From NCBI RefSeq assembly GCF_003334335.1, contig NZ_QOWQ01000088.1: 2,395 bases of DNA; one strand, written 5' to 3'. A program made the position numbers and the translations under genes. Of the stretch, positions 1 to 2,380 are shown piece by piece. Below the pieces are notes generated by a model. It was not told the DNA's origin. It worked only from the letters and a program-made list of their open reading frames with translations, and ran no database searches. This DNA comes from Escherichia coli. GTDB lineage: Bacteria; Pseudomonadota; Gammaproteobacteria; Enterobacterales; Enterobacteriaceae. Each line of letters opens with the position of its first letter. The first letter of the stretch is position 1.

Positions 1-51
1 GAACGCCCACCGCGTCCGTCCCGCACATTCCAGCAACGCATCTGGAGGTAA
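1..51 (+). CDS. 3' end of an upstream gene (partial, product unknown)
   Basis: Frame 1 is open from the window edge to TAA at 49-51 (tail ...ERPPRPSRTFQQRIWR*). The stop lies 1 nt before the GTG at 53, a typical translationally coupled junction. Only 17 codons are visible, so the product cannot be identified. Confidence 0.3.
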   Translation, partial: ERPPRPSRTFQQRIWR

Positions 52-52
52 C

Positions 53-1117
53 GTGCGGGTATTACTTCGACCTGTTCCGGTACCGGAACTTGGGCTGGTG
101 GTCCTTAAACCAGGCCGTGAATCCATGCAGGTATTCCATAACCCTCGAGTACTGGTGGAGCCGGAACCGAAAAGCATGCGTAATCTGCCGTCCGGAGTCG
201 TCCCTGCTGTTCGCCAGCCGCTGGCGGAGGATAAATCATTACTGCCATTTTTCAGCGATGATCGGGTGATTCGTGCTGCTGGTGGCGCTGGGGCACTGTC
301 TGACTGGCTGTTGCGTCATGTCAAATCCTGCCAGTGGCCTCATGGTGACTATCATCACAGTGAAATCGTCATACATCGTTACGGTACCGGCGCGATGGTG
401 TTGTGCTGGCACTGCGACAACCAGCTGCGTGACCAGACATCCGAATCACTCGGGCAACTTGCTCATCAAAACCTGTCAGCATGGATGATTGACGTCATCC
501 GTCACGCAATCAGCGGTACGCAGGAGAGGGAGTTATCGCTGGCCGAATTATCCTGGTGGGCGGTCTGCAATCAGGTGGCTGATGCGCTTCCGGAGTCTGT
601 ATTGCGTCGTTCACTGGGATTACCGGTGGAAAAAATCCGCTCCGTATACAGTGAGAGCGACATCGTACCGGGAGAACAGACAGCCACTAGCATACTGAAG
701 CAGCGCACAAAAAATATTGCGCTACCGCCTCACGTCCACCAGCACCAGCAACAGAACCCACCACAGGAAAAGACGGTGGTCAGCATTGCCGTTGATCCGG
801 AATCTCCGGCTCAGTATCTCCAGCGCCAGAAACCACAACGGGAAGAGATGCCTGTATACACGCGCTGGGTAAAAACGCAGAAATGCATGACGTGTGGCAA
901 TCAGGCAGATGATCCGCATCACATCATTGGTCATGGACTGGGAGGTATGGGAACAAAGGCTGACGATTTGTTTGTTATTCCGTTGTGCCGTAAATGCCAT
1001 AACGAACTACACGCCGGAGTAAAAGATTTTGAAGAGAAACACGGCAGTCAGCTGTTGTTGCTGATTCGTTTTTTAATGCACGCGAGAAATTCGGGTGTTC
1101 TGAAGTGGAAAGCATAA
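53..1117 (+). CDS. DUF968-like prophage protein with C-terminal HNH/His-Me-finger-like zinc-binding motif (putative nuclease)
   Basis: 1065-nt ORF (354 aa) with GTG start at 53, GGAGG at 45-49 and stop TAA at 1115-1117 directly abutting the rusA ATG. C-terminal residues 278-320 (nt 884-1012) read CMTCG...DDPHH...LCRKCHNELH, i.e. CxxC...HH...CxxCH-N-x2-H, the HNH/His-Me finger signature. Proteins of this architecture commonly sit just upstream of rusA in lambdoid prophages (family assignment is from memory, not a search). The start is uncertain: the SD-to-GTG spacing is short and in-frame ATGs occur at 125 and 176. Confidence 0.75.
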   Translation: MRVLLRPVPVPELGLVVLKPGRESMQVFHNPRVLVEPEPKSMRNLPSGVVPAVRQPLAEDKSLLPFFSDDRVIRAAGGAGALSDWLLRHVKSCQWPHGDYHHSEIVIHRYGTGAMVLCWHCDNQLRDQTSESLGQLAHQNLSAWMIDVIRHAISGTQERELSLAELSWWAVCNQVADALPESVLRRSLGLPVEKIRSVYSESDIVPGEQTATSILKQRTKNIALPPHVHQHQQQNPPQEKTVVSIAVDPESPAQYLQRQKPQREEMPVYTRWVKTQKCMTCGNQADDPHHIIGHGLGGMGTKADDLFVIPLCRKCHNELHAGVKDFEEKHGSQLLLLIRFLMHARNSGVLKWKA

Positions 1118-1486
1118 ATGACCGAGCGCATAGAATTTGTTTTGCCTTACCCGCCGACGGTGAACACTTACTGGCGACGCCGTGGCAGCACATATTTTGT
1201 ATCAAAAGCCGGGGAGCGTTATCGCCGGGCAGTGGCGCTTATTGTTCGCCAGCAGCGACTGAAATTAAGCCTGTCCGGAAGGCTGGTAATCAGGATTATT
1301 GCAGAGCCACCGGATAAGCGTCGTCGTGACCTGGACAATATTCTGAAAGCACCGCTGGATGCGCTGACGCACGCGGGGTTGTTAATGGACGATGAGCAGT
1401 TTGATGAAATCAATATTGTACGTGGCCAGCCAGTATCTGGTGGACGGCTGGAGATAAGAATTACAGAGGTGGGTGTGCATGAATAA
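1118..1486 (+). CDS. rusA: Crossover junction endodeoxyribonuclease RusA (Holliday junction resolvase)
   Basis: 122-aa ORF whose ATG immediately follows the upstream stop (TAAATG at 1115-1120). The translation carries recognisable RusA blocks: LPYPPTVN.YW near the N-terminus, PDKRRRDLDN (catalytic aspartate cluster), DALT.AGLL.DDEQ, and GGRLEIRITE near the C-terminus. The size matches the ~120-aa RusA family. Confidence 0.9.
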   Translation: MTERIEFVLPYPPTVNTYWRRRGSTYFVSKAGERYRRAVALIVRQQRLKLSLSGRLVIRIIAEPPDKRRRDLDNILKAPLDALTHAGLLMDDEQFDEINIVRGQPVSGGRLEIRITEVGVHE

Positions 1487-2168
1487 CCAGTATTTACAGT
1501 TTGTTCGTGAGCAACTCATGATTGCCACTGCAGATCTCAGTGGGTCGACAAAATGCCAGCTGGAAGCCTGGCAGGAAAATGCCCTGTTCGATACAGGGCG
1601 TTACAGACGCAAAAAAATTCGTTACCGCGATGAGGTAACCGGAAAAATGATCACGCGGGATAATCCCCCGATCCAGGGTAAACAATCACTGGCGAAAGGC
1701 TCATCAATTGCGCTGGTCAGTCCTGTTGAGTTTGCAACATCATCGTGGCGGCGTGCCGTTCTGGAACTGGAAGAACATCAGAAGGCGTGGTTGTTGTGGT
1801 GTTATGGCGGAAACATTTGCTGGGAGCATCAGATCGCGATAACGCAGTGGGTGTGGAGTGAATTTAAAACTCAGTCCGGCTCCAGAAAAATTGCAGTGAA
1901 AACGCTGGAGCGTGTGAAGAAGTTGATCTGGCTGGCGGCACAGGATGTCAGAGGATGGGTTACCGGGTGTGAGGTCTACCAGAGACAGGAGCTTGCCAGA
2001 CTGTGTGGAGTTAAGCCTGATAACTGGAGCCATAATTATGCGAACTACTGGCGTGAGATGTGCGATATTTTTAAGCGCCTCGATAGAGAATCCTTGATTT
2101 GCTCCGTGAAAATAAGAGCGCAACAAAAAGCGACCTTTTCACGACGAGATATTGCAAAAGTCAATTAA
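1479..2168 (+). CDS. Putative late-gene antitermination protein Q-like (assignment by synteny, not by recognised motif)
   Basis: Open frame with stop TAA at 2166-2168. I prefer the ATG at 1479 (MNNQYLQ..., 229 aa) over the GTG at 1473 because GAGGT at 1466-1470 gives an 8-nt spacer; this start overlaps the rusA stop by 8 nt. The gene sits immediately downstream of rusA and about 70 nt upstream of a strong intrinsic terminator, the canonical position of Q in lambdoid phages. I do not recognise a diagnostic Q motif and see no CxxC zinc-finger pairs, so the function is inferred from gene order. Confidence 0.5.
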   Translation: MNNQYLQFVREQLMIATADLSGSTKCQLEAWQENALFDTGRYRRKKIRYRDEVTGKMITRDNPPIQGKQSLAKGSSIALVSPVEFATSSWRRAVLELEEHQKAWLLWCYGGNICWEHQIAITQWVWSEFKTQSGSRKIAVKTLERVKKLIWLAAQDVRGWVTGCEVYQRQELARLCGVKPDNWSHNYANYWREMCDIFKRLDRESLICSVKIRAQQKATFSRRDIAKVN

Positions 2169-2190
2169 ATCGCGTATGTTTCGTATAAAT
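2152..2190 (+). promoter_or_regulatory. Candidate sigma70 late promoter (pR'-like), location approximate
   Basis: TTGCAA (2152-2157), a 17-nt spacer, then TATGTT (2175-2180), predicting a start near 2187. An alternative -10 TATAAA at 2184-2189 has no good -35 and could instead be a -10-like pause element in the initial transcribed region, as Q-dependent promoters use. Hexamer matches are moderate (4/6 each) and the call is inferential. Confidence 0.3.
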
Positions 2191-2233
2191 CTGATATTTT
2201 GCCGATTTTGTACGTGATGGCAAAGTAAGAAAA

Positions 2234-2257
2234 AACCACCGCCAGGTGGTTTTTTTT
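2234..2257 (+). terminator. Rho-independent terminator (tR'-like, possibly bidirectional)
   Basis: Stem AACCACC (2234-2240) pairs with GGTGGTT (2245-2251) around loop GCCA, followed by a run of eight T (2250-2257). An A-tract (2230-2235) precedes it, so the structure is symmetric and could terminate in both directions. Confidence 0.75.
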
Positions 2258-2380
2258 ATGTCCGAAAATCGCGTCAGTACAGTAAACGCGCTGGTGGCGG
2301 TGAATACCTGTCTTTCAGCTTGCTGGCTTTTTCGACAAGAGTTATTGGTGTGTCACGTTAACCGGAAAAGGGAAAAAGAC

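What the first reader, a model, noticed from the sequence alone, without database searches (positions are those of the whole stretch)
329..1012. Internally duplicated HNH-like motif in the DUF968-like protein: degenerate N-terminal copy, intact C-terminal copy
Residues 93-125 (nt 329-427, CQWPHGDYHHSEIVIHRYGTGAMVLCWHCDNQL) and residues 278-320 (nt 884-1012, CMTCGNQADDPHHIIGHGLGGMGTKADDLFVIPLCRKCHNELH) share the pattern HH..I..H..G.G....LC..C.N.L. The N-terminal copy lacks the leading CxxC pair. This suggests an intragenic duplication of a His-Me-finger nuclease fold, with one copy possibly inactive or adapted for binding. The function of this prophage protein family is, to my knowledge, unresolved.
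Basis: partly seen in the sequence, partly recalled or inferred. Interest (0 to 1): 0.45.

Follow-up and report, generated by a model that had tools for sequence, protein, structure and literature searches.

The report
Prophage nuclease with a dead HNH-like twin
This common E. coli prophage gene (YdfU/DUF968 family) has a known, intact HNH nuclease domain at its C-terminal end, and predicted structure suggests a second, zinc-binding, HNH-shaped module near its N-terminal end that lacks the catalytic histidine; this refines the annotation and is not a new kind of system.

Summary
The ORF at 53-1117 (354 aa) is a YdfU-type DUF968 protein in the nin region of a lambdoid prophage. It is followed by rusA and the Q antiterminator. 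The window is 95.5% identical to many E. coli chromosomes.

The N-terminal motif is real but only partly as described:
Only LC..C.N.L is exact in both.
- Pairwise similarity is at chance level (BLASTP E 0.30).
- Profile-profile similarity is weak and not robust (P 0.016 to 0.15), although it always falls in the proposed register.

Other evidence supports an HNH-like module:
- In 34 homologues the family conserves C93, C/H101, C118 and C/H121. Positions 101 and 121 switch between Cys and His in a coupled way.
- AlphaFold places these residues on a confident beta-beta-alpha unit.
- The would-be catalytic His is not conserved.

I read the N-terminal module as a non-catalytic, Zn-binding, HNH-like domain. 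Origin by intragenic duplication is unproven. Interest is modest.

The parts
53..1117 (+). YdfU-type DUF968 gene, 354 aa. GTG start 4 nt after GGAGG (44-48); the stop of the upstream ORF (TAA 49-51) abuts the start.
   Evidence: ORF list. PGAP annotates the same frame and start in 95.5%-identical E. coli genomes. Pfam DUF968 covers residues 160-346, E 3e-63. PHROG 96 covers the full length, E 1e-164. The N-terminal 20 residues are conserved in other genera.
284..430 (+). N-terminal HNH-like module (residues 78-126): helix 78-89, C93, C/H101, strands 105-110 and 113-118, helix 119-125 carrying the C118-W-x-[C/H]121-D122-N123 motif. Predicted non-catalytic.
329..331 (+). C93 codon, proposed Zn ligand 1 of the N module (invariant)
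   Evidence: 34/34 in A1. Invariant also in P1 PdcB and the Vibrio phage H20 homologue.
353..355 (+). H101 codon, proposed Zn ligand 2 (C or H in the family)
   Evidence: C 20, H 12 of 34. Coupled with position 121: C101 always occurs with H121.
404..415 (+). C118-W-H-C121 knuckle at the strand-helix junction, proposed Zn ligands 3 and 4
   Evidence: C118 34/34, W119 33/34, position 121 H 26 / C 8. Same position in the fold as C312-x-x-[C/H]315 of the C-terminal HNH.
443..718 (+). Helical middle region (residues 131-222). Pfam DUF968 starts at residue 160.
   Evidence: AF2 helices 131-154, 163-172, 181-188, 211-222; Pfam.
719..772 (+). Low-confidence His/Gln/Pro-rich linker (residues 223-240), variable in length across the family
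   Evidence: pLDDT below 50 for residues 226-239. Length variation in alignment A1.
779..832 (+). Conserved VDPExPA..M.RPK motif (residues 243-260) leading into the nuclease domain
   Evidence: K260 invariant; D248 and P259 conserved in at least 90% of sequences.
836..1090 (+). C-terminal HNH / His-Me finger nuclease domain (residues 262-346). Zn ligands C278, C281, C312, C315. H289-H290 dyad at the end of strand 1, D305, H316 and H320 on the helix.
1118..1486 (+). RusA-family Holliday junction resolvase gene. Its start abuts the DUF968 stop (TAAATG).
   Evidence: PHROG 34 E 5.5e-57; NCBIfam RusA E 2.9e-26, below the curated cut-off. PGAP annotation.
1473..2168 (+). Antitermination protein Q-like gene, overlapping the end of rusA by 14 nt
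   Evidence: PHROG 304 E 4.8e-103; PGAP annotation.

Best explanation
The gene encodes a YdfU-type DUF968 protein of a lambdoid prophage, carrying two modules of HNH (beta-beta-alpha-metal) shape.

The C-terminal module (residues ~262-346) is a complete nuclease domain stabilised by zinc. C278/C281/C312/C315 hold a structural Zn. H290, at the end of strand 1, is the general base. H316/H320 on the helix, helped by D305, hold the catalytic metal. It most resembles P1 Ref and YbcO.

The N-terminal module (residues ~78-126) has the same helix / Cys / hairpin / Cys-x-x-[Cys/His]-helix layout. It very probably binds a second structural Zn through C93, C/H101, C118 and C/H121. It has no conserved general-base His, so it is a pseudo-nuclease.

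Inferred working model, not shown: the dead module acts as a DNA- or partner-binding platform. It gives the single active site an asymmetric, pseudo-dimeric grip on branched or single-stranded recombination intermediates. The protein would then nick or cut one strand in the phage's early recombination/repair module, next to RusA.

Whether the two modules arose by duplication within the gene or by fusion of two different HNH-fold domains is undecided.
For: Shown by tools:
- Family membership and C-terminal HNH: Pfam and PHROG hits.
- The catalytic H/H/H/H set is conserved in 30/34 homologues.
- N module: AF2 models at pLDDT 90-91 give strands 105-110 and 113-118 followed by helix 119-125, both in the full-length model and in the N-domain-only model.
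- Four Cys/His positions are conserved.
- Coupled C/H switching of positions 101 and 121: C101 goes with H121 in 20/20 and 24/24 cases, and C121 never occurs with C101 (Fisher p 0.001 and 2e-7, not corrected for phylogeny).
- hhalign of N against C profiles always aligns in the same register (helix W85~W272, first Cys, LC118~LC312, 121~315), with best P 0.016 and 2/200 in a column-shuffle null.
- The N module persists in every homologue examined, including P1 PdcB and a Vibrio phage protein at 26-31% identity.

Context: nin-region position between replication genes and Q, abutting rusA. The same neighbourhood was reported in PMC5714182.
Against: - Everything about the N module's fold rests on predicted structures. 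I could not superimpose the two halves or measure ligand distances.
- Foldseek against PDB gives no hit better than E 2.
- No Pfam family matches any of 33 N-domains.
- A profile of the N-domain finds no HNH among PDB sequences.
- The N-versus-C profile signal is not robust: P 0.08-0.15 with other slices or alignments, and 10/150 in the null.
- The first ligand pair is C-x7-9-[C/H] rather than a CxxC knuckle.
- The DNA-binding, pseudo-dimer role is pure inference.
- Conserved D122/N123 have no assigned role.
Confidence: 0.6

Rival explanations
1. The N-terminal motif is an independent Zn-binding module (a generic treble-clef or zinc-ribbon-like finger) with no common origin with HNH nucleases. 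Its resemblance to the C-terminal motif would be convergence among small Cys/His-rich beta-beta-alpha units, possibly amplified by AlphaFold's tendency to build familiar folds.
For: - No significant sequence link: BLASTP E 0.30, hhalign P up to 0.15, no Pfam or PDB sequence hit.
- Foldseek is not significant.
- The first ligand pair is spaced differently from CxxC.
- The hairpin is tight, whereas the C-copy has a 17-residue loop.
Against: - The C-x-x-[C/H] knuckle sits at the strand-2/helix junction exactly as in HNH, and shows the same C/H alternation as position 315.
- The matching extends to the preceding aromatic helix and the following helix.
Confidence: 0.25
2. The N-terminal module is a second, non-canonical active site. 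The nearly invariant D122 with N123/H120 on the helix would bind a catalytic metal, making the protein a two-site nuclease.
For: - D122 is conserved in 32/34, N123 in 22/34 and H120 in 23/34, and W119 is nearly invariant.
- The N module is retained even in PdcB-type proteins whose C-terminal catalytic histidines are lost. This shows that the module carries a selected function of its own.
Against: - No conserved residue sits at the general-base position. Positions 102 and 108 are variable.
- D122 aligns with H316, not with the base.
- No known HNH works without a His, Asn or equivalent at the end of strand 1 (established knowledge of the His-Me finger superfamily; PMC5714182).
Confidence: 0.08
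3. The resemblance is a chance pattern in one sequence with no structural or functional meaning.
For: The pairwise statistics are at chance level.
Confidence: 0.05

Closest known systems
E. coli K-12 YdfU (Qin prophage) / Pfam DUF968 (PF06147); His-Me finger group 7 of Jablonska et al. 2017 (PMC5714182)
   Same: Same family and architecture. Pfam DUF968 E 3e-63. Same neighbours, RusA and antiterminator Q. The C-terminal His-Me finger was already assigned in that paper.
   Different: The published classification and the Pfam model cover only residues ~160-346. The N-terminal module (residues 1-160) is not in Pfam and is not mentioned in the five papers found that cite DUF968.
Bacteriophage P1 Ref, RecA-dependent HNH endonuclease (PDB 3PLW; Pfam RecA_dep_nuc PF16786)
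   Different: Ref is a single-domain protein without the N module or the middle helical region. The Pfam RecA_dep_nuc match is not significant (E 0.2 on a close relative). RecA dependence was not tested.
YbcO of prophage DLP12 (PDB 3G27; DUF1364)
   Different: YbcO is a 96-aa stand-alone domain. It lacks the HH dyad in the aligned position (AH in the alignment).
Bacteriophage P1 PdcB
   Same: Full-length homologue: 26% identity over 90% of the query. It has the same N module, CQ..C..LCWHHDN, and both CxxC pairs. It lies directly upstream of the late-gene activator lpa, as this gene lies upstream of Q.
   Different: PdcB has lost H289/H290/H316/H320, so its C-terminal HNH is predicted dead. Its function is unknown and it is non-essential for P1 (PMC10695390, PMC10067587).
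McrA-type HNH domains (ScoMcrA 5ZMM, EcoKMcrA 6GHC) and CBASS Cap5 HNH
   Different: These are active nucleases with the catalytic His. The N module lacks it and shows no detectable sequence similarity to them.
Lambda NinG/Rap (PF05766), branch-specific endonuclease of the nin region
   Same: Equivalent genomic position (nin region, upstream of Q) and the same superfamily (PMC5714182, PMC4118853).
   Different: There is no Pfam NinG hit even at E<=10, so this protein is an analogue by position, not a member.

Membership tests
DUF968 / YdfU family (PF06147) | Significant match to the Pfam DUF968 profile | tested here: met
   E 3.1e-63, residues 160-346, model positions 1-169 of 171. PHROG 96 covers the full length, E 1e-164.
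HNH / His-Me finger (C-terminal domain) | Beta-beta-alpha core with a His general base at the end of strand 1 | tested here: met
HNH / His-Me finger (C-terminal domain) | Metal-binding His/Asn on the helix and structural Zn ligands CxxC...CxxC | tested here: met
   H316 30/34 and H320 30/34. The C278/C281/C312/[C/H]315 set is intact in 26/34.
HNH / His-Me finger (C-terminal domain) | Metal-dependent nuclease activity | not testable with these tools
   Requires biochemistry. No experimental paper on YdfU/DUF968 activity was found.
HNH / His-Me finger (N-terminal module) | Beta-beta-alpha fold similar to solved HNH domains | tested here: met
HNH / His-Me finger (N-terminal module) | Conserved general-base His at the end of strand 1 | tested here: not met
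   Position 102 is H in only 16/34 and position 108 is H in only 4/32. The module is therefore HNH-shaped but not an HNH nuclease.
HNH / His-Me finger (N-terminal module) | Significant sequence or profile similarity to an HNH family | tested here: inconclusive
   No Pfam hit for 33 N-domains. No PDB sequence hit. hhalign against its own C-domain gives P 0.016 to 0.15 depending on the alignment.
HNH / His-Me finger (N-terminal module) | Structural Zn site formed by four Cys/His around the hairpin-helix junction | tested here: inconclusive
   C93 34/34, position 101 C/H 32/34, C118 34/34, position 121 H/C 34/34, with coupled switching. Geometry and metal content could not be measured.
Intragenic duplication (the two modules as paralogues) | The two halves are more similar to each other than to other HNH families, at significant level | tested here: inconclusive
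RecA-dependent nuclease (Ref, PF16786) | Match to the RecA_dep_nuc profile, and RecA-stimulated cleavage | tested here: not met
   Not listed for the query at E<=10. E 0.2 on a relative. There is structural similarity only. RecA dependence is not testable here.
Anti-phage defence systems (PADLOC) | Match to any PADLOC model | tested here: not met
   0 families at E<=0.1.

The most novel reading that the evidence does not exclude
The CQ...LCWHHDN module, not the nuclease, may be the core of this family. It would be a previously undescribed, HNH-derived, Zn-binding pseudo-nuclease domain that recognises a DNA structure or a host or phage partner.

In YdfU-type proteins it would steer an attached HNH nuclease. 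In PdcB-type proteins (P1, Cronobacter, Pantoea), where the C-terminal catalytic histidines are lost, it would act with no nuclease activity at all. One possible role is as a regulator or recombination mediator, encoded just ahead of the late-gene activators Q and Lpa.
Probability: 0.3. Interest if true: 0.5.

Novelty: new member of a known kind. Interest (0 to 1): 0.3.

Why it matters
DUF968/YdfU genes are widespread. A match to this window occurs in 4600 of 5426 complete E. coli genomes. Homologues occur in Stx-converting phages, SfII, Klebsiella, Yersinia and Vibrio phages, and in P1 as PdcB. Yet no function is known.

Recognising that the unannotated N-terminal 160 residues contain a conserved, probably Zn-binding, HNH-shaped but catalytically dead module gives three things:
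- a concrete domain map;
- a set of point mutants to make (C93, C118, D122 versus H290);
- an explanation for why the family survives in P1-type members that have lost the nuclease residues.

This is an incremental annotation gain, not a new mechanism.

Tried and rejected
1. Pairwise tests of the two segments (BLASTP and Smith-Waterman with shuffles) gave chance-level results. The finding cannot rest on the single sequence.
2. A search of the 5.8-billion-protein index with the N-domain, and again with its profile, was saturated by near-identical E. coli fragments and gave no distant relatives.
3. 'Fusions' of the N-domain to other domains might have shown modularity. They turned out to be chimeras with portal, capsid and tail proteins, most likely prophage decay or assembly artefacts. 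An N-domain-only ORF (L002) is followed by an unrelated gene, not by a split C half.
4. An N-domain profile against PDB sequences gave only a spurious MBP-fusion hit.
5. Foldseek of the N-domain against PDB gave nothing below E 2.
6. Pfam on each of 33 N-domains gave no family.
7. A defence-system role was rejected: no PADLOC hit.
9. The Rfam scan of the window gave only sub-threshold hits.

Full report
**What the window is.** The 2395-nt window is 95.5% identical over its full length to many E. coli chromosomes. A match occurs in 4600 of 5426 complete genomes, and 1237 of them cover at least 80% of the window. In a representative genome it lies in a lambdoid prophage, downstream of the replication genes, hokD and rem, and upstream of the lysis genes. 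The gene order is hypothetical protein, DUF968 protein, RusA-family resolvase, antiterminator Q. In window coordinates the three genes are 53-1117, 1118-1486 and 1473-2168, all on the + strand. PHROG and NCBIfam assignments agree with this.

**Checking the observation.**
- The written pattern is not. As a regular expression it matches nowhere in the protein. 'HH..I' occurs only in the N copy, and only 'LC..C.N.L' is shared literally.
- BLASTP of the two halves finds just that 9-mer (E 0.30).
- Smith-Waterman scores are reached by 217/2000 shuffles at standard gap costs and 55/2000 at soft gap costs.
- On the single sequence, therefore, the resemblance is not more than chance.

**The C-terminal copy.** This part is ordinary and already known.
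- Pfam gives DUF968 (residues 160-346, E 3e-63) and HNHc_6 (269-330, E 3e-7).
- PHROG 96 is labelled HNH endonuclease.
- Jablonska et al. 2017 placed DUF968 and YdfU, together with DUF1364/YbcO, in His-Me finger group 7. They noted the RusA/Q neighbourhood (PMC5714182).
- An AlphaFold2 model built from 113 homologues has mean pLDDT 90. It shows strands 287-290 and 308-311 and helix 313-321.
- In 34 full-length homologues the H289/H290/H316/H320 set is intact in 30, and the four Zn ligands are intact in 26.

**The N-terminal copy at family level.** I collected full-length homologues at 25-95% identity from the 1.84-billion representative library. They come from Escherichia, Klebsiella/Raoultella, Cronobacter, Pantoea, Plesiomonas, Gilliamella, Shewanella and Motilimonas.
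- Their alignment (A1) shows a sharp motif: C93-Q ... [C/H]101 ... L-C118-W-x-[H/C]121-D122-N123.
- C93 and C118 are invariant. Position 101 is C or H in 32/34, and position 121 is H or C in 34/34. W119 is conserved in 33/34 and D122 in 32/34.
- This block is the most conserved part of the N half: 35% mean pairwise identity against 18-26% for its flanks.
- Positions 101 and 121 switch together. C101 is always paired with H121 (20/20 in A1, 24/24 in A2), and C121 never occurs with C101 (Fisher p 0.001 and 2e-7, uncorrected for phylogeny). This is what one expects of two ligands of one metal site.
No candidate general-base histidine is retained.

**Fold of the N-terminal copy.**
- In both the full-length model and a separate model of residues 1-160, the motif sits on helix 78-89, a loop carrying C93 and H101, a tight hairpin (105-110, 113-118) and helix 119-125. 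The separate model was built from an alignment with no C-domain sequence and has pLDDT 91.4. Local confidence is about 97.
- This is the same order of elements as in the C-terminal HNH, and the C-x-x-[C/H] knuckle is at the strand-2/helix junction in both.
- Against this, Foldseek finds nothing better than E 2, although Cap5 and ScoMcrA recur among its noise. No Pfam family hits any of 33 N-domains. A profile of the N-domain finds no HNH among PDB sequences.

**Is it a duplication?**
- hhalign of N against C profiles always aligns the same register: the aromatic helix, the first Cys, LC118 with LC312, position 121 with 315, and D122 with H316.
- The significance depends on the alignment. It is P 0.016 with A4 against A5, where 2 of 200 column-shuffled controls reach the score. 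It is P 0.08-0.15 with other slices, and 10/150 in the null with the larger alignment.
- The N module's best structural neighbours are McrA-type domains, not Ref/YbcO.
- Common fold is therefore reasonably supported. Origin by intragenic duplication remains possible but unproven.
- I could not superimpose the two halves directly, because model coordinates are not exposed.

**Wider family.**
- tblastn against sequenced phages finds the protein in 175 phage records. These include Stx-converting phages, SfII, mEp390 and Klebsiella, Yersinia and Vibrio phages. P1 PdcB matches at 26% identity over 90% of the length.
- PdcB and its relatives (P0205, P0193, P0223) keep the N module and both CxxC pairs. 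They have replaced H289/H290/H316/H320, so their C-terminal HNH is predicted dead.
- Another branch (Vibrio phage H20, P0174, P0182, P0214) keeps the histidines but has lost the C-domain Zn cysteines.
- The N module is the one constant. pdcB is annotated as of unknown function and is non-essential in P1 (PMC10695390, PMC10067587).
- pdcB lies directly upstream of the late activator lpa, much as this gene lies upstream of Q.

**Mechanism (inferred).** The C-terminal domain should act as a metal-dependent ββα-Me nuclease, with H290 as base, H316/H320 as metal ligands and a structural Zn. The N module should be a Zn-stabilised, non-catalytic HNH-shaped domain. Many HNH enzymes work as dimers or tetramers; Cap5 acts as a tetramer of HNH domains (PMC12141522), and T4 endonuclease VII, PacI and Hpy99I as dimers from my own knowledge. 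A dead copy in cis would therefore give an asymmetric enzyme suited to nicking or to structure-specific cleavage of recombination intermediates. This would be consistent with the adjacent RusA and with the similarity to Ref. None of it has been tested. A divergent second active site built on D122/N123 cannot be excluded, but it lacks a general base.

**Verdict.** The protein and its C-terminal HNH are already known. The N-terminal pseudo-HNH module appears undescribed in Pfam and in the literature searched. It is best regarded as a new, divergent, inactive member of a known fold superfamily. Interest is modest.

Noticed in passing
L004 2905-3948 (phage P1 pdcB); also P0205, P0193, P0223: P1 PdcB is a full-length homologue of this protein. 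It keeps the N-terminal CQ..C..LCWHHDN module and both CxxC pairs but has lost all four catalytic histidines of the C-terminal HNH. In this subfamily both HNH-shaped modules are therefore predicted inactive. pdcB sits just upstream of the late activator lpa and is reported non-essential.
   Followed up: partly
L005 2426-3433 (Vibrio phage H20); P0174, P0182, P0214 in alignment A1: A second subfamily shows the opposite loss. The C-domain Zn cysteines (281, 312, 315) are replaced by T/S/A/E, while HH...H...H is kept. The N module is intact in these proteins.
   Followed up: partly
Proteins P0124, P0141, P0175, P0177, P0228 and others (alignment A3); L002 1470-2066: The first 150-220 residues of a Klebsiella-like branch of the family are found joined to portal, capsid, tail-tip J and tail-fibre domains in several independent 50%-identity clusters. 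One 198-aa N-domain-only ORF is followed by an unrelated gene. These probably reflect prophage deletions or assembly chimeras rather than real architectures.
   Followed up: partly
window 2175-2292: Downstream of Q there is a strong hairpin (ACCACCGCCAGGTGGT) flanked by an A-run and a T-run, so it can terminate in both directions. Sub-threshold Rfam hits (isrK, STnc370, Phe_leader) overlap it. The position suggests the short late-promoter leader transcript and terminator on which Q acts.
   Followed up: no
window 44-55, 1115-1120, 1473-1486: The genes are tightly coupled. The upstream ORF's stop TAA (49-51) lies 1 nt before the GTG start (53), with GGAGG at 44-48. The DUF968 stop and the rusA start form TAAATG. 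The Q start overlaps the end of rusA by 14 nt.
   Followed up: no
window 719-772 (residues 223-240): A His/Gln/Pro-rich linker (PPHVHQHQQQNPPQEK) is predicted disordered (pLDDT below 50) and varies in length. The 95%-identical E. coli homologue is 2 residues shorter here.
   Followed up: no
L001 5176-5541 (same prophage, about 2.5 kb upstream of the window): The representative prophage also carries a separate small gene annotated 'HNH endonuclease' (WP_001229301.1). The element therefore encodes at least two HNH-type proteins besides RusA.
   Followed up: no
window 779-832 (residues 243-260): The conserved motif VDPExPA..M.RPK lies just before the nuclease domain (K260 invariant; D248 and P259 conserved in at least 90% of sequences). 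It has no assigned role. It is also present in short C-domain-only DUF968 proteins such as P0163 (L003).
   Followed up: no
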